Positions 301 through 43,316 of a DNA stretch of 64,000 bases are shown piece by piece. Numbering within the stretch: the first letter of the stretch is position 1; each line of letters starts with the position of its first letter. The DNA lies in the NCBI GenBank assembly GCA_964593655.1, contig CAZQIP010000206.1, forward strand, positions 16,963 through 80,962. Reading direction: 5' to 3'. The stretch comes from an uncultured bacterium (GTDB lineage Bacteria > Poribacteria > WGA-4E > WGA-3G). The notes under the pieces were generated by a model. It did no database searches and was not told where the DNA came from. It worked only from the letters and a program-made list of their open reading frames with translations. The position numbers were made by a program, and so were the translations under genes.

Positions 301-1851
301 ATGGAGGAAGGTATGTCAGATCAGGCGAAAAACCAGAGCCAGAATATTTCGCGCCGGCGTTTTTTTAAGGACATAGGCACTGGTACTATTGCTGCAGCAG
401 TTACACCAGCGGTCTTTATCGGTGCAGAGAAAACAGAAAGAAATCAAATGCAAAATCGACCCAATGTCATTTTTATTCTGACGGATGACCAAGGCCCCTG
501 GGCTGCGGGTTGTTGCGGTAATGATGAAGTCCGTACACCTTTTGTTGACCAACTCGCTTCAGAGGGGACACGCTTTCCCAATTTTTTCTGCACGACTCCC
601 GTATGTTCACCGGCACGTGCAAGCCTGATGACCGGACGCATCCCTTCTGCACACGGCGTACACGATTTTTGCAGGGACGGCAGCATGCCACCGAATGCTG
701 AACGTTATCTTGAAGGTTTGACCTGCTATACCGATGTACTCGCTAACAATGGCTACACTGTCGGGTTAAGTGGTAAATGGCATCTCGGCGATAGTCTAAC
801 ACCACAACACGGGTTTAGCCACTGGTTCGCTATGCCTTTAGGTGGAAGCAAATACAACAACGCCAATATGATTCGAGATGGACAAGTAGAAAGGCAACCC
901 GGCTACTTGACTGACGTGATTACCGATGACGCATTAGATTTCATTTCAGCGAATAGCAAAGGTCCGTTTTATCTCAGCATCAATTATAACGCACCACATA
1001 CCCCGTTTAATGGGCATCCAAAAGATATTGTGGATTCTTATGAGGATTGCCCGTTCAAGACATGTCCGCAGGAGGCATTGCACCCCTGGGCGGGACGCGG
1101 AACACTCCCTCACATGGGAAATCGCGAGTCGTTAAAGGGTTATTTCGCTGCCATAACGGCACTTGATCTAAACGTTGGACGCATTTTAGAACGACTTTCT
1201 GAATTAGGCATCCGCGAAAATACCCTCATCGTTTTCAGTAGCGATAATGGATATTCGTGTGGACATCACGGATTTTGGCACAAAGGCAACGGTACATTCC
1301 CACTGAATATGTATGAGAATTCGGTTAAAGTGCCTTTTATCATGAGCCACCGCGGTAAGATACCAGAGGGACGCGTCAGCGAAGCGATGGTGAGTCAATA
1401 CGATTTCATGCCGACACTTCTCGATTATCTCGGCTTACCGGATCCGAATGACGATATGTCACCTGGCAGAAGTTTTGTCCCAGCACTCACCAGAAAAACA
1501 AACGATGCGCAAGATGAGGTCGTTGTATTTGATGAATACGGTCCTGTCCGTATGATCCGAACACAAGAGTGGAAATATGTTCACCGCTATCCTTACGGCC
1601 CCCATGAACTCTATGACTTAGTGAAAGACCCAAGAGAACGAAAAAATCTGATAGACGACAGATCGCAGAACGCATTGATAAGCGATATGCGGCGACAGAT
1701 GGGTGCGTGGTTTGAACGGTACGTAGACCCACGATTGGATGGCACAAGATGTACAGTTACCGGCAGAGGACAAAAGGCAAAAATTGGAGATGGGGTGTAC
1801 GGTGAAGATGCCTTCAATCCAAGGGATACCAGTCATCAACAAAACAGATAG
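301..1851 (+). CDS. Sulfatase (formylglycine-dependent arylsulfatase family), Tat-type signal
   Basis: 516-aa ORF. Twin-arginine-like leader SRRRFFKDIGTG, N-terminal LTDDQG metal site, and sulfatase signature CTTPVCSPARASLMTGR (C-x-P-x-R). Confidence 0.9.
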   Translation: MEEGMSDQAKNQSQNISRRRFFKDIGTGTIAAAVTPAVFIGAEKTERNQMQNRPNVIFILTDDQGPWAAGCCGNDEVRTPFVDQLASEGTRFPNFFCTTPVCSPARASLMTGRIPSAHGVHDFCRDGSMPPNAERYLEGLTCYTDVLANNGYTVGLSGKWHLGDSLTPQHGFSHWFAMPLGGSKYNNANMIRDGQVERQPGYLTDVITDDALDFISANSKGPFYLSINYNAPHTPFNGHPKDIVDSYEDCPFKTCPQEALHPWAGRGTLPHMGNRESLKGYFAAITALDLNVGRILERLSELGIRENTLIVFSSDNGYSCGHHGFWHKGNGTFPLNMYENSVKVPFIMSHRGKIPEGRVSEAMVSQYDFMPTLLDYLGLPDPNDDMSPGRSFVPALTRKTNDAQDEVVVFDEYGPVRMIRTQEWKYVHRYPYGPHELYDLVKDPRERKNLIDDRSQNALISDMRRQMGAWFERYVDPRLDGTRCTVTGRGQKAKIGDGVYGEDAFNPRDTSHQQNR

Positions 1852-11330: not shown

Positions 11331-13862
11331 ATGAAAACGATGCGACTTCCGATTCTAATATTACTTCTCACTTCAACCTTTTTCCGACTGAGTGTTTTTG
11401 CTCAGGATTACACACAATGGGGTTTACCTGAGGGTGCCAGGGTAAGACTCGGAAAAGGCGGATTACGGGGCAATATAGTCTTTTCACCGGACAGTACCTT
11501 GCTCGCTGTTTCGACTGCTATTGGAATTTGGATTTACGATGGACACACGGGTAAAGAACTGAAGTTCCTTACAACACGGACGGGCGGCATCTCAAGTGTA
11601 GCTTTCAGTCCGGATAGCAAAACGCTTGTCAGCAGTAGTTCAAAGGAGTTTTACCTGTGGGACGTTGCCACAGGCGAACACAAAGCCACTTTCACAGGAC
11701 ACACAGCCGACATTACGAGTGTCGCGTTCAGTCCTGATGGGAAAACGCTCGCAACCGGCGGAGATGAGAAAGAAGGATTGGTCAAGTTTTGGGATGTTGA
11801 TACGGGTACCCTTGAAATGACCCTTATAGGGCATACGGACAATATCTTAAGTGTCGCGTTCAGTCCCGATGGAAAAACACTCGCAAGTGGTGGGCATTGG
11901 AAAGACAAGACAGTGCGGCTCTGGGATGTTGCTACCGGTACGCTCAAATCGACACTCAGCGGACATTTAGACGGTGTTACGGGCATTGCGTTTAGCCCTG
12001 ACGGTCACACACTTGCGAGTTGTAGTCATTGGTGGGGCGGCACGGTGTGGCTCTGGGATGTCGACAGCGGTGAACTGAAAATGACCCTGACCGGACATGT
12101 AGATAGTGTTCATAGTGTCGCATTCAGTCCGGATGGTAGCGTGCTTGCAAGTGGGAGCAAAGATGGCACAGTGTGTTTATGGGACGTTGCCACTGCTGCC
12201 TACAAGACGACGCTCTCGACACATACCCGAAGTGTATCAAGTGTCGCGTTTAGTCCGGATGGTAGCACCTTCGCCAGTAGTAGTCGAGACGGTACAGTGC
12301 GGTTGTGGGATGCCACGAATTTTGAGCAGAGAGCGACAATCACTGGACATACGACAGGTTTCTCAAGTATAGCGTTCAGCCCGGATGGACGAACGCTTGT
12401 GAGTGGTAGTTGGGACCGAGCAGTCCGCCTATGGGATACAACTACTGGTCATAACAAAACCACACTTACTGGACACATAGGTCCCATTAAATCCGTTGAC
12501 TTCAGTCCGGATGGCCGAACGGTTGCCAGTAGCGGTGGCATAACTGTCATCAACGGCTGGTTCGTAGATGATTACACGGTAAGGTTGTGGGATGCAGCTA
12601 CAGGCACACATAAAATGACCCTCATTGGACATAAAGCCAATATTTATGATGTCGCGTTTAGTCCCGATGGCCGCATGCTTGCCAGTAGTGGAGGGAGAGA
12701 TGACGAAAGTGTGTGTCTGTGGGATACCGACACAGGTAATCACTTGGCGACGCTGGCGGGTCATAAAGATGGTGTCCTCAGTGTCGCGTTCAGTCCCGAT
12801 GGAAAAACACTCGCAAGCGGGAGTTCGGCCGGAATACATCTGTGGGATATTCCGAGTAGACAACAAAAAACCCTACTCACTGAGTATAGAGGGACAATTT
12901 GGACGCTCGCGTTTAGTCCCGATGGAAAAACACTCGCAAGTGGTGGTATGGACCGAGATGTACATTTATGGGATGTTGCGGCTGGCGAGCATAAGATCGC
13001 TCTCATAGGACATACAGACAGAATTACCAGTGTCGCGTTCAGTCCCGATGGAAAAACAATCGCAAGTAGTGGAGATTGGCGAGACAGAACGGTGCGCCTA
13101 TGGGATCCCATCAGTGGGGAGCACAAATCGACTTTCATAGGATATGCCAGTGGCAGTGAGAGTATCGCTTTCAGTCCTGATGGCGCCACACTCGCCGTTG
13201 CTGGCTTTGGTGGGGTAATACTCCTCTGGCGACTTGGAACCACAGCGGAATTACCACTACCGCTGTTAGAAGCAGATGTGAACGGTGATGGCGTTGAAGA
13301 TATTCAGGATTTGGTGCTTGTCGCAGCAAACTTCGGGCAAACGGGGCCAAACGCTGCAGATGTCAATAATGACGGTGTTGTTGACGCTGCCGATCTTATC
13401 AAAGTAGCTGCTGCGTTGGATAATGCGGCAGCTGCGCCATCCGCTATGATACTTAACGTAAAAAATGTGCAACAGTGGCTTACGCAAGCGCAGCAATTAG
13501 ATTTGAGGGATGCAACGTTACAGAGAGGTATTCACTTCCTCGAACAACTGCTGCGAACGTTAGCACCAACAGCAACGGTATTGTTGCCTAACTACCCGAA
13601 CCCATTCAACCCAGAGACATGGATCCCGTATCAGTTGGCGAAGGCTGCGCATGTGGCGTTGCGTATCTATTCCGCAGATGGAAAATTGGTTCGTACGCTG
13701 GCGTTAGGACATCAGTCTGCGGGTATTTATCAACACCGGAATCGTGCGGCGTATTGGGATGGGAAAAATGAACTCGGTGAACCTGTCGCCAGTGGTGTCT
13801 ATTTTTATACCTTGGTGGCGGGAGAGTTCACTGCTACGCGAAAAATGCTAATACGGAAATAG
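11331..13862 (+). CDS. Secreted WD40-repeat protein, tandem paralog of 8626..11199 (dockerin-like repeats + T9SS/FlgD-Ig-like CTD)
   Basis: Signal MKTMRLPILILLLTSTFFRLSVFAQ. Same N-terminal DYTQWGLPEGARVRLGKG box, WD40 units, DVNGDGVEDIQDL...DVNNDGVVDAADLI, and C-terminus LLPNYPNPFNPETWIPYQL...AYWDGKNELGEPVASGVYFY. Confidence 0.85.
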   Translation: MKTMRLPILILLLTSTFFRLSVFAQDYTQWGLPEGARVRLGKGGLRGNIVFSPDSTLLAVSTAIGIWIYDGHTGKELKFLTTRTGGISSVAFSPDSKTLVSSSSKEFYLWDVATGEHKATFTGHTADITSVAFSPDGKTLATGGDEKEGLVKFWDVDTGTLEMTLIGHTDNILSVAFSPDGKTLASGGHWKDKTVRLWDVATGTLKSTLSGHLDGVTGIAFSPDGHTLASCSHWWGGTVWLWDVDSGELKMTLTGHVDSVHSVAFSPDGSVLASGSKDGTVCLWDVATAAYKTTLSTHTRSVSSVAFSPDGSTFASSSRDGTVRLWDATNFEQRATITGHTTGFSSIAFSPDGRTLVSGSWDRAVRLWDTTTGHNKTTLTGHIGPIKSVDFSPDGRTVASSGGITVINGWFVDDYTVRLWDAATGTHKMTLIGHKANIYDVAFSPDGRMLASSGGRDDESVCLWDTDTGNHLATLAGHKDGVLSVAFSPDGKTLASGSSAGIHLWDIPSRQQKTLLTEYRGTIWTLAFSPDGKTLASGGMDRDVHLWDVAAGEHKIALIGHTDRITSVAFSPDGKTIASSGDWRDRTVRLWDPISGEHKSTFIGYASGSESIAFSPDGATLAVAGFGGVILLWRLGTTAELPLPLLEADVNGDGVEDIQDLVLVAANFGQTGPNAADVNNDGVVDAADLIKVAAALDNAAAAPSAMILNVKNVQQWLTQAQQLDLRDATLQRGIHFLEQLLRTLAPTATVLLPNYPNPFNPETWIPYQLAKAAHVALRIYSADGKLVRTLALGHQSAGIYQHRNRAAYWDGKNELGEPVASGVYFYTLVAGEFTATRKMLIRK

Positions 13863-17941: not shown

Positions 17942-19570
17942 TTAGAAAACAGACATTTTGACGCTGAAAGCGTTACGGCTCCCTTTCACACTGTATGGAC
18001 TCCCGGTAATACACAACCGAAATAGCTTGCCTTGGTCAAAAAGGTATGTGATTTTTCCCGTTTTTTCGGGACCAACATGCCACTTTGTGGCGAGGGCACC
18101 GAGAGCTTCCACATAAGCATCGCCGTGTTGACGCTCCCAGACAGAGGCAGGTACGCCTTCAGGGGCTTTTTCTGTTGGGAGGTTTTTGTCACCATCAAAC
18201 AGGTAGAAAGTTCCTTCCGCCTTACCTCTCCCAACTCCGATATCCAGTGTAAGGGTGCCGCCGTCTTCAAACACCGTGGTATCAATCTCTACGACGGTGT
18301 AGTTTTGATGCGGTACCATAGGAGTCTGAAAAGTGTCCATTACCTCCACTGAGGAGCACACAGGGGTCAGGACAATTCTACCCAAACCAGGGCGTTTTCC
18401 TTCTAAGGCTCCCGATAAAAATAGACGGTACCCTTCCGCCTGGGAGTGCCCCTTATCTATGCAATCTCCGAAGAACCTATTGGCATCTTGCCTACCCATC
18501 ACTTCAAGTTCAGGCGAGATAACCAAACAATCTACCGGCGCGTTTAGATGCCATCCGTCTATGACAGCTTGTGCCAACGGATGTGTTGTGTCAACCCCCT
18601 TGAAACCGTGCTGGATTCTCTGGGCAAGATAGGTACGTTTGTTTGGCGTGCGCCCGAAGGCAACATTGGACACCCATGTGTTGATAAAGTGTTCGTTCAA
18701 GAATTTTATATTTTGTTCGTCGGAAAGAGCACCTGACCTCAGGGCTTTACCACTCCCTCAGCAAGTTTCATCTGCCAAAGGTCCATCTATGGAAATGGCG
18801 TGAATCGGTTTCTGCTGTGCTTGTGCTAATTCCAACGCCGCCTCCATCGGTACCCAATCAATTTGTTCCGATTTGTAAAACTGACAGTTTAGCAGACGCT
18901 CGGCTTCCTCCTGCGTGATGGCAGTAGAACCGCTCATTGCACTTTCCAAGTGGGTTGTGATGTCTTGCAAAACGGCTTCGGCACCAGTACGGAGTTCCAT
19001 TTGTGCACAGAAACCGGTATCCATAATCCAGTTGGAGTCATCCCAACTCTTTTCGTCCTGCCAGCCAACCTCAAAGTTCACGGGACCTTCTGGAACGCGC
19101 ATCTGAAAGAACGAGACTGTCTCTTCTGGACGGTTGATAATGAGATGTCCGGCAAACTGTGAAGGCGTGAACCAGCCATCACCTAACTTGAATTCTACGT
19201 GAATGCGAAACACAATGTCCGCGAATTCATCAGTGTAGGCACGTAAACAAGCCCACAACCCGGGATCCCCGTAACCGCGCATATCCAAATGCGGGTTTGG
19301 GTGAAGTTGCCTCAGTAGTTCAAGGACCCTTGTTTGTTCAATCTGCCAGGGAGTTCCAACAGACACCGCTTCGTCTGGTAAAAACGCGCGAAAAATGGAT
19401 GCGGAATACTCTTTTTCTGGCGCAGCGACTCGGAGATTCGCTAACTCGTTCCACTCATACTCCACGTGGTAGTTAGCTAAGGTATATTCAATCGGAGCGA
19501 TGAAACCTTTGATGGGAATTTTGGTATCACCATCAATATTAAGCGCGATTTTGTTGGGGGTCGGTTTCAT
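17942..19570 (-). CDS. Candidate selenoprotein: 542-aa protein with thioredoxin-fold domain, TGA (18758-18760) read as Sec in motif C-U-G-S-G
   Basis: Track ORFs 18758..19570 and 17942..18700 are in the same frame, separated only by TGA plus 19 open codons. The joined sequence is ...QQKPIHAISIDGPLADETC-U-GSGKALRSGALSDEQNIKFLNEHFINTWV... If the TGA is a true stop, these are two hypothetical genes. Confidence 0.5.
18728..18748 (-). promoter_or_regulatory. SECIS-like hairpin candidate downstream of UGA 18760-18758
   Basis: mRNA AGC-CCUG-[AGGU]-CAGG-(U)-GCU: 7 bp with one bulged U, apical loop AGGU about 20 nt after the UGA. Confidence 0.35.
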
Positions 19571-19786
19571 ATCTTCCTCAGGACTTTAGAATCTCTTGAG
19601 CAATCTGTGCTTGGAAAAAAATCTATTAGATAGGGACGGATGTGGAAATCCATCCCTACAGAAAGAACTAAACTCGTCCTGGTTCGCAGAAAGCCCTGGT
19701 CTCTTGACCATTAACTCGCCTCTGACACAATCGACAAAGGCACAAATTGATGGTCAACACGGAAAGACCAGTGCTATGGTCCATAG

Positions 19787-21232
19787 TTAAAAGATCCCGG
19801 CAATTGGTTCACCCTTCACCAATTCGCGGGGTTGATCTAAATGGTTGTAGACGATCGTATGCGGATCAATACCAAGGGTGTGGTAGACCGTAGCGAGGAT
19901 GTCGCGTGGATGCACCGGATTCTCAAGCGGTGTTGAACCTGTCGCATCGGACTTGCCGTAAACCTGTCCGCCTTTGACACCTGCGCCTGCGATTAACCCT
20001 GTGTAGCAATAGGGCCAGTGGTCGCGTCCATCAGGTGCGTTGCTATTACCGGAGGTGCTAATACCCATCCGTGGCGAGCGTCCGAATTCACCGATCGCCA
20101 AGACAAGTGTATCCTCTAACATCCCGCGCTGATCCAAGTCTTCGAGCAGTGAGGAGACAGCACTATCTAACTTCGGACAGTGGAGGTTCTTCAATGGGCC
20201 GAAGTTTGTTGCGTGCGTATCCCACGCAGTCGTGTTCGGATCGCCATTTGCGACTGAGGGCCAGTTCACCTGAACGAAGCGCGTGCCAGCCTCGACCAAT
20301 CGGCGAGCAAGGAGTGCGCTCTGCCCGAAGGTGTGTCTACCATAGCGATCACGCATCTCATCGGGTTCTTGTGACAGATCGAAAGCATTACGTGCCCGCT
20401 GCGACAAGATGAGATTGTACGCCTTCTCATAATACTCGTTCAAGGCATAGGAGTCCGCCACCTTATCAATTTCGGGCATACCGGCGTTAATCGTCTCAAG
20501 GAGGTTTTTCCGGCGTTTCAAGCGCACGGGTGGCACCTCTGGCCGCAAGCTTAAGTCATCAAGGTTAATATCTTGATTCGGATCCTGGAAGAGGAAGTAC
20601 GGATCGTAGGCTCTCCCTAAGAAACCGGCGTTTCCGCCTTTACCGATGATATTACTCTCTTGCATCGGACGCGGAAGTTGTACTGCCGCGAGCATCGGTT
20701 CATCGGGGGGTCGGTAATTTGAGATATGCGCTGCGGCATTCGGATGGTCGGCAGGCGAAGGTGGATCAAGTTGCCCTGAAGGGGCGACCTTATCCGGTGT
20801 TTCGCCAGTAACCATTTGATACATCGCAGCCGTGTGGTTGAAAAGCCCTGCCGGTGTGTAGCTGACCGAACGGATCAAGCAGGCTTTGTCCATCTGCTGT
20901 GCCAAACGCGGCATTGTCTCAGATAACTGAATCCCCGGCACGTTGGTCGGGATCGGTTTGAATTCACCGCGAATATTTGAAGGTGCATCGGGTTTTGGGT
21001 CCCAGATATCGAGGTGGCTAGGCCCGCCTTGTAAAAAGAGAAGGATGACCGAGTTGGCTTTTCCCCATCCGTTTAGCGGTTTAGCGGGGTCAACTGCCGT
21101 ATTCGCGTTCGCTTGGAGTGACAATACCTGTGGCAGACTAATGCCGAGCATCGCCGCACCACCGACACGTAGAAATTCACGACGTGAGAACCCGTCACAC
21201 AAGCGTCCGGGTAATTGTGGTAACGATAACAT
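19787..21232 (-). CDS. DUF1501-domain protein (sulfatase-like fold), Tat signal
   Basis: 481 aa. SRREFLRVGGAAMLG leader; FLQGGPSHLDIWDPKP and GRDHWPYCYTGLIAGAGVKGG motifs typical of DUF1501. Confidence 0.85.
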   Translation of the reverse strand: MLSLPQLPGRLCDGFSRREFLRVGGAAMLGISLPQVLSLQANANTAVDPAKPLNGWGKANSVILLFLQGGPSHLDIWDPKPDAPSNIRGEFKPIPTNVPGIQLSETMPRLAQQMDKACLIRSVSYTPAGLFNHTAAMYQMVTGETPDKVAPSGQLDPPSPADHPNAAAHISNYRPPDEPMLAAVQLPRPMQESNIIGKGGNAGFLGRAYDPYFLFQDPNQDINLDDLSLRPEVPPVRLKRRKNLLETINAGMPEIDKVADSYALNEYYEKAYNLILSQRARNAFDLSQEPDEMRDRYGRHTFGQSALLARRLVEAGTRFVQVNWPSVANGDPNTTAWDTHATNFGPLKNLHCPKLDSAVSSLLEDLDQRGMLEDTLVLAIGEFGRSPRMGISTSGNSNAPDGRDHWPYCYTGLIAGAGVKGGQVYGKSDATGSTPLENPVHPRDILATVYHTLGIDPHTIVYNHLDQPRELVKGEPIAGIF

Positions 21233-24143: not shown

Positions 24144-25064
24144 TCACGAAAGATCCCAAAGCAAGACAGAGTTATCTTCACTTGCGCTTGCGAGTAAACT
24201 ACCGTCAGGTGCATAAGCGACGTTCCTGACACTACCGGTATGCCCTGTGAGTGTGTTTTTCGATTTGCCTGCCTTCGCATCCCATAGACGCACTGTACCA
24301 TCACTACTACTACTTGCGAGCGTTGCACCATCAGGAGAATACGCAACACTCCAGACATAACCTCTATGTCCTGTGAGTGTGTCCTTGGTTTCACCTGTTA
24401 TCACATCCCAGAGACGTACTGTGCGGTCGGTACTCCCACTGGCAAGGGTTTCGCCATTGGGAGCATAGACAGCAGCATTGACAATATGCTTATGTCCCGC
24501 GAGTGCCGCTTTGTGCTGTCCAGTGGCAGCATCCCATAGTAGGACGGTATCATCTCCACTGCCGGCTGCGATCGTGCTTCCATCAGGAGAATATGTGACA
24601 GACCTAATAGAGAACTGGTCCAGTGTGAGGGTATTTTTAACTTCCCCTGTGCTTACATCCCACAAACGTACCGTGCCATCAGGACTTCCACTCGCGATCG
24701 TGTTCCCATCAGGAGAAAAGGTAACGCTTCTAACAGCGTCAGTATGTCCAGTGAGCGTTGCTGTCGGAGCCCCGCTGGTTGCATCCCACAGCACAACGGT
24801 GTTGTCAATACTTCCACTTGCGATTGCCCCGCCATCAGGTGAAAAGGCGACACACCTGACGTATTCTTTGTGCTCTACAAGTAGATTGAGCCCTGTTGCA
24901 CTCTCTACATCGTAGACCCAAACGCCAATGTCGCAGGCGACTGCGAGTTGTGTCCCGTCCGGTGAGAAGGCTATATCTCCAGTTAGGTTTCCTTGATCAA
25001 GTCGTGCTTTGACTCCTTCAGGTAGATTCAATTGTATTTCTTCTCCAACTTTTAGATTTTCCAA
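24144..25064 (-). CDS. WD40-repeat protein (7 units), short paralog lacking signal peptide, dockerin repeats and CTD
   Basis: 306 aa. LNLPEGVKARLDQGNLTGDIAFSPDG box, then xSPDGxxIASGSxDxTVRLWD units. The ORF starts at TTG 25064, so the start is uncertain. Confidence 0.75.
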   Translation of the reverse strand: MENLKVGEEIQLNLPEGVKARLDQGNLTGDIAFSPDGTQLAVACDIGVWVYDVESATGLNLLVEHKEYVRCVAFSPDGGAIASGSIDNTVVLWDATSGAPTATLTGHTDAVRSVTFSPDGNTIASGSPDGTVRLWDVSTGEVKNTLTLDQFSIRSVTYSPDGSTIAAGSGDDTVLLWDAATGQHKAALAGHKHIVNAAVYAPNGETLASGSTDRTVRLWDVITGETKDTLTGHRGYVWSVAYSPDGATLASSSSDGTVRLWDAKAGKSKNTLTGHTGSVRNVAYAPDGSLLASASEDNSVLLWDLS

Positions 25065-27220: not shown

Positions 27221-28696
27221 TTACATCGGTCCCACCCGCCGCGGTCCTATGTCTATGGCAAACATAGACGCGTCGAAATTCTGTTTCAATAGTTCCAGTT
27301 TGATGTCCTGTTTATCGGGTGCATGCCAGAGATTGTTAAACTCGTCGGGGTCATCGATTAAGTCGTAGAGTTCTCCCTCCTCGTGTCCGTGATAGACTAC
27401 CAATTTGTAACGTTTATCCCGATACATTGTTGCATAAGAGTGGTCGCGGCCATTGACAGCATCATAATATTCACACCGGACAAAGTCGCGGTGCTGGTTT
27501 GCGTCCGCCTCACCGCGAAGGATAGGCAGTAGCGATCGTCCATGCATGCCTTCAGGGGGTGTTAAGCCCGCTAATTCCAAAAGTGTCGGTGCTTTGTCAA
27601 CGAGTTCAACGAGTGCGTTGCTTTTGAGACCGTTCACGAACTGTCCTTGCCATGCAAAAATCAACGGCACTCTGACTAAGCCTTCGTAAAATCGGCACCC
27701 TTTCTGAATCAATCCGTGGTCGCCGAGCGTTTCTCCGTGGTCACTCGTGAAAATAATGACGGTATTTTCGCGTTGTCCTGTTTCTTCAAGTGTTTCAAGC
27801 ATTCTACCCAACTGCTCGTCAATGAGTTGGATCATCGCGTAATAAGCGGCTTTGAGCGTCTTGGCATCCGTTGCCCCGACTGTATTCGTCTCTTGGCGCG
27901 GGGTCTGCCCCTTCCCAGTAACGGGTGGGGACCCCGGTAAAATCGGGCTGCGGATGTCCAATTCATCAGGTGTTCGGACTTTGGATTGAAAATCGACTAC
28001 TTGTAAACGGGTCTGCTGTTCGAGATCGCTATTTCGGAAGAGCGGTTCTGGCATCTCCGCTGGATTAAATTGCTCTCGGTACGTCTGTGGCGGATTGAAG
28101 GGTGGATGCGGATCGTAGATATTGACGCTCGCCAGCCACGGGCCATCGCGTTCTTCACGGATGAATTCGATTGTCTTTTCCGCGCACCATGTCGTCTGAT
28201 GCAATTCCGGTGGCACGCCTTCTGGATTTCGATTCAATTCGCCTAAAATATAACCTTTCGAGCGTACCCAATCCGCGTAGTCATGCCCTTGTTCCCAATC
28301 GTCACGTGGCGCATGGCTGTACTGCCAATAGCGGTATCCGTCGTTTGTACGTGGTTCTATTCGACGGTAAGCACTCGCAAGATGGAGTTTGCCAATCAGA
28401 CCGCAATCATAGCCGATGTCTGCGAGGGTCCGCGTCACAAGCGGATACGCGTCAGGAAAGAAATCGTTTCCGTTACGATTTGCGTGCGTTGCGTTTGGGT
28501 ACATACCTGTGAGAAAACTCGCCCGACTCGGCGTACAGATGGGGCTTTGGCAGTAGGCATGCGTGAACGCGACACCGTCTTCCACAAGGCTATCAATGTT
28601 CGGCGTTGATACGTACGGGTTACCCAACGCCCCGATTGTATCGTAACGCTGCTGATCTGTGCAAACCCAGAGAATATTGGGTGCTTTAAGAGCCAT
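27221..28696 (-). CDS. Sulfatase (formylglycine-dependent)
   Basis: 491 aa. ILWVCTDQQR, CQSPICTPSRASFLTGMYP, FTSDHGE. Confidence 0.9.
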   Translation of the reverse strand: MALKAPNILWVCTDQQRYDTIGALGNPYVSTPNIDSLVEDGVAFTHAYCQSPICTPSRASFLTGMYPNATHANRNGNDFFPDAYPLVTRTLADIGYDCGLIGKLHLASAYRRIEPRTNDGYRYWQYSHAPRDDWEQGHDYADWVRSKGYILGELNRNPEGVPPELHQTTWCAEKTIEFIREERDGPWLASVNIYDPHPPFNPPQTYREQFNPAEMPEPLFRNSDLEQQTRLQVVDFQSKVRTPDELDIRSPILPGSPPVTGKGQTPRQETNTVGATDAKTLKAAYYAMIQLIDEQLGRMLETLEETGQRENTVIIFTSDHGETLGDHGLIQKGCRFYEGLVRVPLIFAWQGQFVNGLKSNALVELVDKAPTLLELAGLTPPEGMHGRSLLPILRGEADANQHRDFVRCEYYDAVNGRDHSYATMYRDKRYKLVVYHGHEEGELYDLIDDPDEFNNLWHAPDKQDIKLELLKQNFDASMFAIDIGPRRVGPM

Positions 28697-28717: not shown

Positions 28718-30316
28718 CTATTGAGTCGTTGCGCTAAACCCAGACGCTTTAACGATGTTCGCGAGGTCAGTGGCAGTCGCCGTGTTTTTTCGGACTTTAA
28801 TGACGGCTTGATCGGGTAGCGAAACTTCGACACTGATAACGCTCTGGTGTTGTGTAAGTGCACCCTGCACTTTCGCGACACACGCCCCTCACGTCATGCC
28901 TGACACGACCAGTGTGACATCTTCACTCCCGGCAGGTTCGATCGGGACAGACATAAAGGCGTTCAGTAGTTTCCCAGAAGCGTCAAATATCCGAATTTTA
29001 CCGTCGAAACCGCCTGTAGCGAGTTGTGTGCCATCAGGATGGAATGAAACTGCGAAAACACCGACTGCATCGCCTTGCATGCTCGCTAAACGCTTCCCAT
29101 CCGCTATGTTATAGATACGCGCTTCGCCGCCTGCACTGCCGGTCGCGAACCGGGTGCCATCCGCAGAAAACGCTACCGCTTCAATTGTCCCCGACTGTGC
29201 TTCGTAGGCTTGGATAAGGTTAAAGTCTGTATTGCCAACATCTCTTCGGATTTCACGGAAAATTTTGTAGAGCCGTGGTATCCGATCCTCGCCAGCACTC
29301 AAAACTTGGTCTTCAGTGGGATGTCGTGCGATGGTGTTGATTTCACCGTAGCCTTTGTTACTGGAGTTGACATCATCCACAAAAGAGCCTGTGTCTACCT
29401 CAACCAATTTGAGTGCAGTATCACGTCCACAACTCACAAAATGCGAGCCGTCAACAGAAAAAACAGTGCCGAAAACCCAATCGCTGTGGTTATCAAATTT
29501 AATGAGCTCTTTTTCATTTTCAACGGATAGGACACGTACTGTCTGATCTGAGCATCCAAAAGCGACGCGACTTGCATCTGGTGAGAAAGAAAGCCCGTAA
29601 ATCGTATCATAACTGGAGCGCATCGCTTTGATGAGGGTGTCGGTTGCAGTATCCCAGAGCTGCACTTCGCCAAATTGTGCGGCGGATCCACCTGCCATGC
29701 CTAATATTTTGCCATCCGCTGTATATGTCAGCGACTCTATTCGACGTGCTTTACCGACCAATCGCGCTTTGAGTTTATAATTCGCCGTGTCATACAATAA
29801 AACTTCTCGGACCCCTGATACTGCAAGCGTGTTGCCATCGGGTGAGTATGCCAGCGCAGTAACCACCGGCGGTACGGTGTAAACCGGATAGTCTCCCTCC
29901 GCCATATCATCGACTTCGGCGGGTGTATCATCGGGCGCGCCTTCAAGAATCCACCGTCGGAAGAGTTCGACCTCTTCGGCAGAGAGCGGTTCCATATTTT
30001 GTGGCATTGCGGGTTCATCGCCGGAGATGAGCTTAATGATGAGACTGTCATCAGGTTTCCCCGGGACGATTGTTGCATCGCCCGCCATCCCGCCTTGTTT
30101 GAGATCGGTATAGGTTGTGACAATCAAGCCGCCGTTTGGATCGCCTGGGTGATGGCATCCTTGACAACTCCGCTTGAGAATTGGGACGATCTGTGAGTGG
30201 TAACTGACGGGTGCCTCTGCGCCATGATTATCCGCTGTTACAAACGGAACCCACGCTACAAGGCAGAGTAAATACACCGCTAAATGGATAGTAAACCTTG
30301 ATCGCGATATTTTCAT
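28718..30316 (-). CDS. Cytochrome c (PSCyt-type CxxCH) + WD40 propeller protein, extended through TGA 28889-28891 (candidate Sec) into a C-terminal HMA metal-binding domain
   Basis: ORF 28889..30316 carries CQGCHHPG and WD40 units and ends VTLVVSGMT-TGA. The next 56 in-frame codons, GACVAKVQGALTQHQSVISVEVSLPDQAVIKVRKNTATATDLANIVKASGFSATTQ-TAG, complete an HMA fold with GMT-U-GAC. The 28889..30316 core is safe (0.85); the extension is less certain. Confidence 0.6.
28851..28882 (-). promoter_or_regulatory. SECIS-like hairpin candidate downstream of UGA 28891-28889
   Basis: mRNA UGUGU-cgcga-AAGUGCA-[GGG]-UGCACUU-ACACA: 5 bp + 7 bp stems, apical loop GGG 24-26 nt after the UGA. Confidence 0.45.
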
Positions 30317-41948: not shown

Positions 41949-43316
41949 ATGCCACAAGACTCAAATCAACCCAATGTTATCGTTTTTTTCACCGACCAGC
42001 AGCGGTGGGATACATCCGGCTTGCACGGAAATCCGCTCGACTTGATGCCGAACTTCGACCGGATGGCACAACGCGGTACACATGTCCGTCGATCTTTCAC
42101 ATGCCAACCTGTCTGTGGGCCTGCGCGCTCGTGCCTACAAACAGGATTATACGCCACACGGACAGGATGTTTCCGAAATGGTATTCCACTCTCACCAAAC
42201 CTCAAGACCCTCGCACACCACTTCGGTGAGGCAGGCTACGCGACCGGATATATCGGTAAGTGGCACCTCTATAGCGGTGGTGGCACTGGACCGGGGCCCG
42301 TGCCTGCGGAGCATCGCGGTGGGTATGATTATTGGTTAGCATCCAATACGCTCGAATTTACTTCCGACGCATATCAGACAACGCTTTATGATAATGACAA
42401 TAAACCCGTTGACCTTCCCGGCTATCGTGTAGACGCGCTCACCGATGCAGTGATACGCTACGTTGACCGACATAAAACCGAACCATTTTATCTTTTTACC
42501 TCATACATTGAACCACACCACCAAAACCATTTAGACGACTATCCGCCGCCGGACGGGTACCGGGAGCGGTATACGGGGAAATGGATACCACCGGATCTTG
42601 CTGCGCTCGGTGGATCAACGCACCAGCACTTAGGTGGTTACTACGGTATGGTGAAAAGGTTGGATGAAGCACTCGGCAGACTTTTAGATGCTCTCAAAAG
42701 TCTCCACCTACTTGATAACACGATTATTCTTTTTACCTCTGACCATGGATGTCATTTCAAAACCCGTAATGGTGAATATAAACGCTCATGCCATGAAAGT
42801 TCTATCCGTGTGCCGACTGCGTTCCACGGAGCCGATTTCATTGGTGGTGGACAGCTCCAAGAACTCGTCAGTCTCGTTGATCTTCCGCCGACGCTGCTTG
42901 ATGCTGCAGGTTTGGAAGTCCCGGCTGAAATGCAAGGCAGATCTATTATGCCGTTGGTACGGGGGGAAACGGACGACTGGCCAGAAGAGGTTTTCGTCCA
43001 AATTAGCGAGGCGCAGGTCGGGCGCGCGGTTCGGACGCAACGTTGGAAATACGGTGTAGATGCCCCGAATAAGAGCGGTGGCAGAGATGCCGGGTCAGAC
43101 CGGTATGTGGAGCAATACCTTTATGATCTTCAGGCAGATCCATACGAGTTACGGAATCTCGTCGGACTTCAATCGCATGAACCGGTTACAGAGGTCATGC
43201 GGGAACGGCTCATTCGGCGGATGTTGGAGGCAGGCGAAGAGGCACCAACGGTCGAAGCAGCACCTACACAACGGAGCGGACAGCGCAGTGTAACCGAAGC
43301 GGAGGCGCGAAGTTAG
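41949..43316 (+). CDS. Sulfatase (formylglycine-dependent), cytoplasmic-looking N-terminus
   Basis: 455 aa. VIVFFTDQQR, CQPVCGPARSCLQTGLY, FTSDHG. Confidence 0.9.
   Translation: MPQDSNQPNVIVFFTDQQRWDTSGLHGNPLDLMPNFDRMAQRGTHVRRSFTCQPVCGPARSCLQTGLYATRTGCFRNGIPLSPNLKTLAHHFGEAGYATGYIGKWHLYSGGGTGPGPVPAEHRGGYDYWLASNTLEFTSDAYQTTLYDNDNKPVDLPGYRVDALTDAVIRYVDRHKTEPFYLFTSYIEPHHQNHLDDYPPPDGYRERYTGKWIPPDLAALGGSTHQHLGGYYGMVKRLDEALGRLLDALKSLHLLDNTIILFTSDHGCHFKTRNGEYKRSCHESSIRVPTAFHGADFIGGGQLQELVSLVDLPPTLLDAAGLEVPAEMQGRSIMPLVRGETDDWPEEVFVQISEAQVGRAVRTQRWKYGVDAPNKSGGRDAGSDRYVEQYLYDLQADPYELRNLVGLQSHEPVTEVMRERLIRRMLEAGEEAPTVEAAPTQRSGQRSVTEAEARS

What the first reader, a model, noticed from the sequence alone, without database searches (positions are those of the whole stretch)
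17942..19570. Second candidate selenoprotein: two 'hypothetical' ORFs are one 542-codon frame joined by TGA at the nucleophilic Cys position of a thioredoxin-fold motif (C-U-G-S-G)
Seen in the sequence: ORF 18758..19570 ends ...QQKPIHAISIDGPLADETC-TGA. The next 19 codons (GSGKALRSGALSDEQNIKF) are open and in frame with ORF 17942..18700, which the track only starts at a TTG. The joined region, IDWVPMEAALELAQAQQKPIHAISIDGPLADETC-U-GSGKALRSGALSDEQNIKFLNEHFINTWV, follows the layout I remember for Thioredoxin_7/DUF255-type domains. That layout is helix, KP + beta strand, W-C-x-x-C, k-a-l, then about 14 residues to l-N-E-x-F-V. With that spacing, U aligns with the first (attacking) Cys of CxxC and the second Cys is Gly. 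A Cys directly precedes U, giving a C-U pair like the GCUG centre of animal thioredoxin reductase. A modest hairpin (AGC-CCUG [AGGU] CAGG-U-GCU) places a GG-containing apical loop about 20 nt after the UGA. Two independent TGA-at-CxxC cases within 10 kb make chance or pseudogenisation less likely and suggest the organism uses Sec. The gene sits between a PPC-domain exoprotein gene and the DUF1501 and DUF1549/1553 pair.
Basis: partly seen in the sequence, partly recalled or inferred. Interest (0 to 1): 0.85.

Follow-up and report, generated by a model that had tools for sequence, protein, structure and literature searches.

The report
Bacterial selenoprotein N homolog gene
The two 'hypothetical' ORFs are one gene for a selenocysteine-containing bacterial relative of animal selenoprotein N (the human muscle-disease protein SELENON), from a family greatly multiplied in the sponge symbionts Poribacteria.

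Summary
Minus-strand frame 19570..17942 is open apart from one TGA (18760-18758), in the context ...PLADETC-TGA-GSGKALR.... The selenoprotein reading is supported.

- All 153 family copies found in about 55 Poribacteria genomes keep TGC-TGA-G-[S/T]-G-[K/R] in frame.
- The 19 codons after the TGA evolve as coding sequence.
- True Cys forms exist elsewhere (TGC TGT).
- A hairpin with a GGU-containing loop sits 17 nt after the UGA, and its synonymous sites are frozen.

It is a homolog of eukaryotic selenoprotein N (BLASTP E=8e-36 against primate SelN; profile-profile E=1.7e-40). The Sec lies in the same S/T-C-U-G-S-G-K/R motif as SelN's 'SCUG'.

The bacterial protein has no EF-hand or membrane anchor. 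It carries an extra C-terminal beta-sandwich and uses an in-ORF bacterial SECIS. Its Sec-bearing domain models as a DsbH-like thioredoxin fold.

The bacterial SECIS occupies the same codons as the animal SELENON 'SRE' hairpin. I found no paper describing bacterial SelN homologs.

Not shown here: sel genes in the genome, selenium incorporation, or enzyme activity.

The parts
17942..19570 (-). Complete SelN-like selenoprotein gene: ATG 19570-19568, 542 codons including one UGA (Sec271), stop TAA 17944-17942
   Evidence: Orthologs with 78-91% identity and the same TGA occur in 19 Poribacteria species with conserved synteny.
19573..19579 (-). Shine-Dalgarno-like GAGGAAG just upstream of the ATG. 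No signal peptide follows in this orthogroup.
   Evidence: Read directly. Ortholog N-termini are listed.
18986..19552 (-). N-terminal beta-rich domain (aa 7-195), homologous to the conserved core of selenoprotein N (motifs FLP..VSVG..W, LHPNP, WACLRAY..IVFRIH.EF.L..WFTPSQF.G)
   Evidence: BLASTP of window aa 43-299 against SelN 90-395, E=8e-36. hhalign E=1.7e-40. AF2 model of homolog P0001 mapped to the window.
18404..18913 (-). Thioredoxin-like (DsbH-type) domain, aa 220-389: beta1 IHAISI, Cys270-Sec271 before helix alpha1, beta2 INTWVS, invariant Pro345 before beta3 DCLVI, beta4, final helix
   Evidence: AF2 model of P0001 (pLDDT 78). Foldseek hits 7tkv and 2ju5 at E about 5e-4. Coordinate mapping. 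Invariant columns.
18761..18763 (-). TGC codon for Cys270, the vicinal partner of Sec. It is the C of the S/T-C-U-G motif.
   Evidence: TGC in 152 and TGT in 1 of the 153 TGA-bearing copies.
18758..18760 (-). UGA codon read as selenocysteine (Sec271)
   Evidence: Conserved in 153/153 TGA-bearing copies. Cys in the Cys forms (TGC TGT). Same column as Sec in animal SelN.
18725..18740 (-). Family-conserved SECIS-like hairpin: stem nt 20-25/30-35 after the U of UGA, loop AGGU (18734-18731). In this window it reads GAGGUC[AGGU]GCUCUU, weakened by one U.C mismatch and a terminal G.U pair.
   Evidence: 93.6% of cells paired across 135 distinct sequences. 0/500 shuffles reach the observed value. Slid controls give 44-81%. 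Synonymous sites are frozen. The unrelated second Sec gene has a hairpin at the same offset.
18728..18746 (-). It is the MFE fold in this sequence and is mutually exclusive with the conserved hairpin.
   Evidence: -8.6 kcal/mol. Only 71% paired family-wide and not above shuffles.
17948..18379 (-). C-terminal beta-sandwich domain (aa 398-541), absent from animal SelN and from several other bacterial members
   Evidence: AF2 strands 432-556 of P0001. Foldseek hits to PPC / collagen-binding domains 3jqw and 5sv5. Missing in L081, L091 and L092.

Best explanation
Positions 19570..17942 (-) hold a single gene for a 542-residue selenoprotein. It is a bacterial (Candidatus Poribacteria) member of the selenoprotein N (SELENON/SEPN1) family.

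**Recoding.** The ribosome reaches UGA at codon 271. A short hairpin starts about 17 nt downstream, and its apical loop carries GGU (the Gly280 codon). The hairpin is inferred to recruit SelB-GTP-Sec-tRNASec, so that Sec is inserted and translation continues.

**Protein.** The product has three parts:
- a SelN-core beta-rich N-domain;
- a DsbH-like thioredoxin-fold domain with a vicinal Cys270-Sec271 pair at the N-terminus of helix alpha1 (motif T-C-U-G-S-G-K, equivalent to SelN's S-C-U-G-S-G-R);
- a C-terminal beta-sandwich.

**Chemistry.** The most likely activity is a thiol/selenol oxidoreductase cycle through a Cys-Sec selenenylsulfide, as in the GCUG centre of thioredoxin reductase, acting on a protein or small-molecule substrate held by the flanking domains.

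**Shown:** the single reading frame, conservation of the UGA, Sec/Cys homology, the conserved hairpin, homology to SelN, and the fold class of a homolog.

**Inferred:** SelB dependence, actual selenium incorporation, the redox cycle and the substrate.
For: **One gene, recoded**
- The frame is open apart from one TGA.
- 153/153 TGA-bearing copies in about 55 Poribacteria genomes keep TGC-TGA-G-[S/T]-G-[K/R] in frame.
- Distant bacterial members (72%, 58% and 57% GC) do the same.
- In 19 orthologs, the 19 codons after the TGA diverge 0.072/0.039/0.224 at codon positions 1/2/3. Their amino-acid divergence is 0.086, lower than the rest of the protein at 0.16-0.17.
- 70 of 148 representative clusters end at the Cys, and others start just after it.
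- Cys forms read C-C-G-S-G-K, and the DNA of one was verified as TGC TGT.
- TGA is an ordinary stop for 7 of 38 other ORFs in the window.

**SECIS**
- The conserved hairpin is 93.6% paired with G-C to A-U double changes. No shuffle reaches the observed value.
- Arg is always AGR (151/151), Leu is CUC in 146/151, and the third positions of codons 6-9 and 11 are fixed, while flanking third positions vary freely.
- Other bacteria carry an fdhF-like GCGAGCA[GGUC]UGCUCGC at the same place.
- The unrelated HMA-tail Sec gene in this window has AAGUGC[AGGGU]GCACUU at the same offset.

**Identity**
- Profile hit to a Nematostella protein, E=1.7e-32. That protein matches vertebrate 'Selenoprotein N' at E about 1e-108.
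- Window protein against primate SelN: E=8e-36.
- hhalign probability 100%, E=1.7e-40, 313 aligned columns.

**Fold**
- AF2 topology beta-alpha-beta-alpha-beta-beta-alpha, with Foldseek hits to DsbH / Thioredox_DsbH.

**Sec use in the lineage**
- PMC13582414 lists Poribacteria among phyla with Sec hydrogenases.
- PMC5649159 reports SelA/SelB COGs enriched in sponge-symbiont bins.
Against: - No selA, selB, selD or tRNA-Sec gene lies in the window or in the roughly 750 kb of related loci held. The machinery is therefore supported only by literature on the phylum.
- In this window the conserved hairpin is weak (one U.C mismatch and a terminal G.U), and a competing hairpin is more stable.
- No Pfam, NCBIfam, PDB-sequence or TrxA-profile match supports the thioredoxin assignment at sequence level.
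- The structural model is of a 50%-identical Gly-type homolog, and the active-site loop has low confidence (pLDDT about 56).
- Poribacteria non-Sec relatives carry Gly, Trp or Thr rather than Cys. At least that clade therefore does not need a redox residue at this position.
- No activity or substrate is known, even for SELENON.
Confidence: 0.87

Rival explanations
1. The TGA is a real stop. The locus is two adjacent genes (an N-terminal and a C-terminal protein), or a gene inactivated by a nonsense mutation.
For: Gene callers split it this way everywhere. A TTG or CTG six codons after the TGA is available as a start in most copies. Full-length homologs without a TGA exist.
Against: - The four codons between the TGA and that YTG (G-S-G-K) are invariant as amino acids and match animal SelN's GSGR.
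- The post-TGA stretch shows a coding-type substitution pattern and is the most conserved part of the protein.
- The TGA sits at one column in 153 copies and 70 deep clusters, which a pseudogene cannot explain.
- Cys forms are continuous through this point.
Confidence: 0.02
2. The UGA is recoded but not as selenocysteine. One route is Cys inserted by a tRNA-ReC (SelC*)-type tRNA working with the SECIS. Another is near-cognate read-through stimulated by the hairpin.
For: PMC13582414 (discussion) notes that tRNA-ReC decodes UGA as Cys in the presence of SECIS elements in some bacteria. Cys forms of the family are evidently functional. Genome-wide tRNA content could not be examined here.
Against: - The eukaryotic homolog is an established selenoprotein at this very residue (PMC8584023).
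- Maintaining TGA plus a SelB-type hairpin in hundreds of copies, when TGC or TGT is one mutation away, argues that Sec itself is selected.
- The phylum is reported to encode other Sec proteins (PMC13582414).
Confidence: 0.06
3. Sec is inserted, but the protein is not a catalytic disulfide/selenenylsulfide oxidoreductase. The Cys-Sec pair could instead bind a metal or metalloid, or act as a redox sensor that signals to partners, for example ECF sigma factors for the paralogs.
For: - The second Sec gene in the window puts Sec into a metal-binding HMA motif.
- Non-Sec and Cys-form relatives sit next to, or are fused to, ECF sigma factor genes.
- SELENON itself is described as a sensor/regulator rather than a classical enzyme (PMC8584023).
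- Gly, Trp and Thr variants persist under selection.
Against: - The thioredoxin-fold position of the pair at the alpha1 N-terminus, together with an invariant Pro before beta3, is the standard catalytic geometry.
- The window's own orthogroup is not next to a sigma factor. It sits in a conserved PSCyt2/PSD1-DUF1501-X-PPC block.
Confidence: 0.15

Closest known systems
Selenoprotein N (SELENON / SEPN1 / SelN) of animals and some algae
   Same: - Homologous over about 310 residues: the N-domain plus most of the thioredoxin-like domain (BLASTP E=8e-36; hhalign E=1.7e-40).
- Sec at the same column, in the same motif: [S/T]-C-U-G-S-G-[K/R]-x-L-R.
- The family is almost exclusively Sec-containing (PMC7539508).
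- An RNA hairpin lies right after the UGA on the same codons.
   Different: - No EF-hand and no N-terminal membrane anchor or ER targeting.
- An extra C-terminal beta-sandwich.
- Recoding signal inside the ORF (bacterial SECIS with a GGU loop), rather than a 3'UTR SECIS plus SRE.
- Many tandem paralogs per genome instead of one gene.
- The host is a bacterium.
C-terminal GCUG redox centre of mammalian thioredoxin reductase
   Same: An adjacent Cys-Sec pair followed by Gly. It is expected to form a selenenylsulfide.
   Different: In TrxR the motif is on a flexible C-terminal tail of a flavoenzyme. Here it is internal, at the helix alpha1 N-terminus of a thioredoxin fold. There is no homology.
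DsbH / Thioredox_DsbH (DUF255, PF03190) and Thioredoxin_7-type thioredoxin-fold domains
   Same: Best solved-structure matches of the Sec-bearing domain (7tkv E=4.8e-4; 2ju5 E=5.1e-4, TM 0.51). The layout matches: KP-beta1, redox motif, short helix, 'LN..F.N.W' beta2, Pro before beta3.
   Different: No HMM-level similarity. The motif is C-U-x-x-G instead of C-x-x-C. A longer loop (GPLxDE) lies between beta1 and the redox residues.
Bacterial SECIS elements of the E. coli fdhF type
   Same: A hairpin immediately 3' of the UGA, inside the ORF, with GGU in the apical loop. Non-Poribacteria members have the same GCA[GGUC]UGC core as I recall for fdhF (the fdhF sequence is from my own memory).
   Different: The Poribacteria version is a 6-bp stem with an AGGU loop and no evident bulged U. 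The loop lies 24-27 nt after the UGA. SelB binding is untested.
UGSC-containing selenoprotein family (GOS metagenomes, PMC2398784)
   Same: A Trx-like selenoprotein with U-G-S at the redox site. Here the motif is U-G-S-G.
   Different: That family has a UxxC motif and no preceding Cys. The NCBIfam and Pfam scans gave no match of any kind. I could not test homology directly, and I have no evidence that the two are related.

Membership tests
Selenoprotein N (SELENON) family | Significant sequence similarity across the SelN-specific conserved core | tested here: met
   BLASTP E=8e-36 against Pan paniscus SelN. hhalign probability 100%, E=1.7e-40, 313 columns. The link protein P0172 is SelN by E about 1e-108 to named vertebrate SelN.
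Selenoprotein N (SELENON) family | Sec within the S-C-U-G motif at the homologous position | tested here: met
   Window: T-C-U-G-S-G-K. Most paralogs: S-C-U-G-S-G-K. Animal transcripts: S-C-U-G-S-G-R, in the same register.
Selenoprotein N (SELENON) family | EF-hand calcium-binding domain and N-terminal transmembrane/ER anchor | tested here: not met
   No Pfam domain at all, including no EF-hand. The alignment starts after the EF-hand region of SelN. The window orthologs have no hydrophobic N-terminus.
Selenoprotein N (SELENON) family | Eukaryotic recoding apparatus: 3'UTR SECIS plus SRE hairpin after the UGA | tested here: not met
   This is a bacterial gene. A short in-ORF hairpin of bacterial SECIS type takes the place of the SRE. 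No Rfam family matches.
Bacterial SelB/SECIS-dependent selenoproteins | In-frame UGA conserved among homologs, with protein-coding conservation on both sides | tested here: met
Bacterial SelB/SECIS-dependent selenoproteins | Homologs with Cys at the Sec column | tested here: met
   P0098, P0102, P0109, P0116, P0148 and P0120 have C-C at this position. DNA of P0098 is TGC TGT. The Poribacteria non-Sec clade has Gly, Trp or Thr instead.
Bacterial SelB/SECIS-dependent selenoproteins | Stem-loop just 3' of the UGA with G in the apical loop, supported by conservation or covariation | tested here: met
   93.6% paired, 19 cells changed on both sides, 0/500 shuffles reach the observed value; synonymous-site freezing. 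In the window itself the hairpin is imperfect and an alternative exists.
Bacterial SelB/SECIS-dependent selenoproteins | selA, selB, selC and selD present in the same genome | not testable with these tools
   None in the 64-kb window or the held loci. Literature support exists at phylum level only (PMC13582414, PMC5649159).
Bacterial SelB/SECIS-dependent selenoproteins | Selenium physically present in the protein | not testable with these tools
   Requires 75Se labelling or mass spectrometry.
Thioredoxin-fold oxidoreductases (DsbH / Thioredoxin_7 type) | beta-alpha-beta-alpha-beta-beta-alpha fold similar to solved members | tested here: met
   AF2 model of the 50%-identical homolog P0001 (pLDDT 78). 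Foldseek 7tkv and 2ju5 at E about 5e-4, probability 1.0. The window protein itself could not be modelled because the tool refuses the joined sequence.
Thioredoxin-fold oxidoreductases (DsbH / Thioredoxin_7 type) | Match to the family HMMs (Pfam Thioredoxin_7, Thioredox_DsbH, and others) | tested here: not met
   0 Pfam and 0 NCBIfam families at E<=10. The profile against PDB sequences gave 0 hits. hhalign against E. coli TrxA gave no meaningful match.
Thioredoxin-fold oxidoreductases (DsbH / Thioredoxin_7 type) | Redox residue at the N-terminus of helix alpha1 (first Cys of CxxC) and a cis-Pro loop before beta3 | tested here: inconclusive
   In the model, C308-G309 (equivalent to Cys270-Sec271) precede helix 312-317. 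An invariant Pro precedes beta3. However, the loop pLDDT is about 56 and no residue-level structural alignment was available.

The most novel reading that the evidence does not exclude
Selenoprotein N may be of bacterial origin, or may have been exchanged between early animals or protists and bacteria. In that case the puzzling 'selenocysteine redefinition element' (SRE) hairpin next to the UGA of animal SELENON mRNA would be the evolutionary remnant of a bacterial SECIS.

- Bacterial SelN homologs carry their SECIS on exactly the same codons (L6-R7...L11 after Sec). The apical loops fall at nt 26-30 after the UGA in both bacteria and animals.
- The bacterial family is deep and diverse, and it includes a [10 protein letters not shown] clade that groups with animal SelN in a rough tree.
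- The large expansion in sponge symbionts would add a selenoprotein to their repertoire of eukaryote-like proteins.
Probability: 0.3. Interest if true: 0.85.

Novelty: new variant of a known kind. Interest (0 to 1): 0.75.

Why it matters
- **A tractable model for SELENON.** SELENON is a human disease gene (rigid-spine muscular dystrophy, multi-minicore disease). Its catalytic activity, substrate and structure remain unresolved. Soluble bacterial homologs with the same SCUG centre, including natural Cys forms, give a route to structures and enzymology.
- **Origin of the SRE.** The in-ORF bacterial SECIS lies on the same codons as the SELENON SRE. That makes the origin of the SRE a testable evolutionary question.
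- **Poribacteria biology.** A multi-copy, mostly exported selenoprotein family implies a substantial selenium demand and an unrecognised extracytoplasmic redox activity in sponge symbionts.
- **Annotation.** Hundreds of these genes are currently split into two 'hypothetical proteins'.

Tried and rejected
- **Code 25/4 artefact.** I suspected that full-length homologs with G or W at the Sec column came from gene calling under code 25 or code 4. This was rejected: the DNA shows real GGC/GGA, TGG and ACT codons.
- **Sequence-level family searches.** All were empty: Pfam and NCBIfam scans of the joined protein, a family profile against PDB sequences, hhalign against E. coli thioredoxin, and Rfam on the junction.
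Rejected at family level: 71% paired, no better than shuffles. It is kept as a local alternative.
- **Sec machinery.** Searches for tRNA-Sec and sel genes in the window and loci found nothing, which is uninformative.
- **Modelling the window protein directly.** I modelled a homolog instead.
- **First related-loci scan.** The broad alignment failed for lack of conserved blocks. I repeated it with full-length sequences.
- **UGSC family.** I considered a link and found no evidence for it.
- **Global TGA reassignment.** Rejected: TGA terminates 7 of 38 other ORFs.
Full report
**Observation.** On the minus strand the frame from ATG 19570 to TAA 17942 is interrupted only by TGA at 18760-18758. The called upstream ORF ends ...QQKPIHAISIDGPLADETC. 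The 19 codons after the TGA (GSGKALRSGALSDEQNIKF) are open and run into the TTG at 18700, where the downstream ORF was called. A scan of all six frames found this as the only place in the window where two long open segments (at least 60 codons each) with coherent protein context are joined by a TGA. TGA terminates 7 of 38 other long ORFs in the window, so the code is standard.

**Is the TGA translated?**
- A protein search returned 89 relatives. About 50 were N-terminal halves ending ...DE[A/S]C. About 20 were C-terminal halves beginning just after the junction. About 15 were full-length proteins.
- I first suspected that the full-length ones were translated under another genetic code. Their DNA shows real GGC/GGA (Gly), TGG (Trp) or ACT (Thr) codons at that column.
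- A scan of species-representative genomes gave 244 confirmed matches. The 78 loci kept all came from Candidatus Poribacteria.
- In those loci, 153 of 153 TGA-bearing copies read TGC-TGA-G-[S/T]-G-[K/R]-x-L-R in frame. They are often arranged in tandem arrays of up to five copies.
- Nineteen species carry a syntenic ortholog of the window gene, in the order PSCyt2/PSD1 - DUF1501 - this gene - PPC-domain protein - tRNA-guanine transglycosylase.
- In these orthologs the 19 codons after the TGA diverge 0.072/0.039/0.224 at codon positions 1/2/3. Their amino-acid divergence is 0.086, half that of the rest of the protein.
- More distant bacterial members (72%, 58% and 57% GC) keep the same TGA and the same downstream peptide.
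- An exhaustive profile search of 1.84 billion representatives gave 750 hits. Of the 148 new ones listed, 70 end in [DENQ][DEQ]xC. Six that span the junction have C-C-G-S-G-K or a close variant of it. For one of these the DNA is TGC TGT.
- Together these are the classical signatures of a selenoprotein family: a conserved in-frame UGA, coding conservation on both sides, and Cys homologs.

**Recoding signal.**
- I aligned the junction of 135 distinct copies. A 6-bp hairpin, GAGGGC[AGGU]GYYCUC, occupies nt 20-35 after the U of UGA.
- It is 93.6% paired, with G-C to A-U double changes at two pairs. No shuffle out of 500 reaches the observed pairing or covariation. Slid controls give 44-81%.
- Synonymous sites inside it are frozen. 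Arg is AGR in 151/151, Leu is CUC in 146/151, and the third positions of codons 6-9 and 11 are fixed. Third positions just outside vary freely.
In this particular sequence, however, it is the MFE fold. The conserved hairpin here carries a U.C mismatch and a terminal G.U pair. Which one acts in this gene is open. Both present an AGGU loop.
- Other bacteria have GCGAGCA[GGUC]UGCUCGC and GAGAGCA[GGUC]UGCUCUC at the same place. This is the loop I recall for the E. coli fdhF SECIS (own knowledge).
- The unrelated second Sec candidate in this window has AAGUGC[AGGGU]GCACUU at the same offset. It is a PSCyt1-WD40 protein whose TGA opens an HMA-like tail, GMT-U-GAC.
- No sel genes or tRNA-Sec lie in the window or the held loci.
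- The literature lists Poribacteria among phyla with Sec-containing hydrogenases (PMC13582414). It also reports SelA/SelB COGs enriched in sponge-symbiont bins (PMC5649159).

**What the protein is.**
- Pfam and NCBIfam give nothing.
- The profile search hit a Nematostella protein at E=1.7e-32. That protein matches vertebrate proteins named Selenoprotein N at E about 1e-108.
- The window protein aligns directly with Pan paniscus SelN at E=8e-36 (29% identity over 308 residues). The aligned stretch includes PIHAISIDGPLADETC-U-GSGKALRSGALSDEQNIKFLNEHFINTW against [45 protein letters not shown].
- A profile-profile comparison gives probability 100%, E=1.7e-40 over 313 columns. It reaches the Pro-containing strand of the thioredoxin-like domain.
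- Animal transcripts confirm ...DDQSC-TGA-GSGR....
- SELENON's SCUG motif is described in the literature as reminiscent of thioredoxin reductase (PMC8584023).
- The bacterial protein lacks SelN's EF-hand and membrane anchor, and it adds a C-terminal beta-sandwich.

**Fold.**
- The model has a beta-rich N-domain, then a beta-alpha-beta-alpha-beta-beta-alpha domain, then a beta-sandwich. In the middle domain the Cys-Sec position sits just before helix alpha1, and an invariant Pro precedes beta3.
- Foldseek matched the middle domain to Thioredox_DsbH (7tkv) and DsbH (2ju5) at E about 5e-4. It matched the C-terminal domain to PPC / collagen-binding domains.
- Sequence-level tests of the thioredoxin assignment failed. 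The alignment of Sec with the first Cys of CxxC is therefore inferred from topology only.

**Mechanism.**
- Most likely, SelB-dependent insertion of Sec at codon 271 yields a protein with a vicinal Cys-Sec redox pair in a thioredoxin fold. The pair would cycle through a selenenylsulfide.
- The window orthogroup has no signal peptide. Most paralogs appear to have one, judged by eye from their hydrophobic N-termini in the alignment.
- A Poribacteria clade that lost Sec (to Gly, Trp or Thr, each reachable from TGA by one or a few mutations) sits after ECF sigma genes and before ABC transporter genes.
- Cys forms elsewhere are next to, or fused with, ECF sigma factors. This hints at a sensing role for some members.

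**Novelty.**
- Searches of the held literature found no report of bacterial SelN homologs or of a Poribacteria selenoprotein family.
- Two reviews of prokaryotic selenoproteomes do not mention SelN.
- Here the bacterial homologs carry their SECIS on the same codons as the SRE. The bacterial apical loop is at nt 26-29 or 27-30. The animal SRE loop is at nt 26-30 in L088 and nt 23-33 in L089.
- A rough NJ tree shows a deep, mostly Sec-containing family. Animal SelN forms one clade next to DDQSC-type sequences, at least some of which are bacterial. Poribacteria form a separate clade.
- Whether the SRE descends from a bacterial SECIS, and in which direction the gene moved, is not settled by these data.

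**Verdict.** The finding is real and the selenoprotein interpretation is correct. The gene is a bacterial variant of the selenoprotein N family with an in-ORF SECIS. Still untested: selenium incorporation, the sel genes of this genome, and the enzyme's activity and substrate.

Noticed in passing
window 28718-30316 (-): A second candidate selenoprotein. The ORF 28889..30316 encodes PSCyt1 plus a WD40 propeller. It continues through TGA 28891-28889 into a 56-codon HMA-like tail (...VVSGMT-U-GACVAKVQG..., stop TAG 28720-28718). Sec replaces the first Cys of the GMTCxxC metal-binding motif. The hairpin AAGUGC[AGGGU]GCACUU lies at the same offset from the UGA as in the SelN-like gene.
   Followed up: partly
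L001 6001-7674; L086 6001-7662; L084; L085: A Poribacteria clade of the family has lost Sec. The column holds Gly (GGC/GGA), Trp (TGG) or Thr (ACT), never Cys, and L086 has also lost the neighbouring Cys. In the two long loci (L001, L086) these genes follow a long ECF sigma gene and precede ABC2-type transporter genes. The old hairpin stem is partly retained, but the loop GGU is lost in L001 and L084.
   Followed up: partly
L087 3001-4254 (P0098); P0102: Cys-form bacterial relatives (C-C-G-S-G-K) occur next to an ECF sigma factor gene, and one protein is fused to an ECF sigma domain. This suggests a link between the family and extracytoplasmic signalling.
   Followed up: no
L023, L034, L048, L075 (and many others): Tandem arrays of four to five SelN-like copies occur within about 10 kb, each with its own TGA and hairpin. 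The L063 copy at position 455 has an internal deletion that removes most of the thioredoxin-like domain.
   Followed up: no
L088 and L089 (animal transcriptome contigs): Animal SelN mRNAs show a very stable hairpin (-35 to -37 kcal/mol) starting 6 nt after the UGA. This is the known SRE. Its apical loop falls on the same codons as the bacterial SECIS loop.
   Followed up: partly
P0264, P0261, P0172 (public SelN gene models): Database models of animal SelN mishandle the Sec codon. One reads 'SCHCSG', one drops the U, and the Nematostella model has a spurious 'LFLFIYCWMI' insert in place of C-U-G.
   Followed up: no
window 19787-21232 (-) and L003-L021: The DUF1501 neighbour is 95-99% identical in protein sequence across 19 Poribacteria species. 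The adjacent SelN-like gene is 78-91% identical and the PPC-domain gene 66-94%. The DUF1501 conservation is unusually strong.
   Followed up: no
window 301-1851, 27221-28696, 41949-43316; 11331-13862, 24144-25064: The window holds several sulfatase genes and several WD40-repeat genes.
   Followed up: no
L091 2742-3881; L092 478-1794: These are non-Poribacteria bacterial members (57-58% GC), one with a lipoprotein-type signal. They carry the animal-like DDQSC-U motif (followed by GSGR in L091 and PSGT in L092), lack the C-terminal beta-sandwich, and have a textbook GGUC-loop SECIS.
   Followed up: partly
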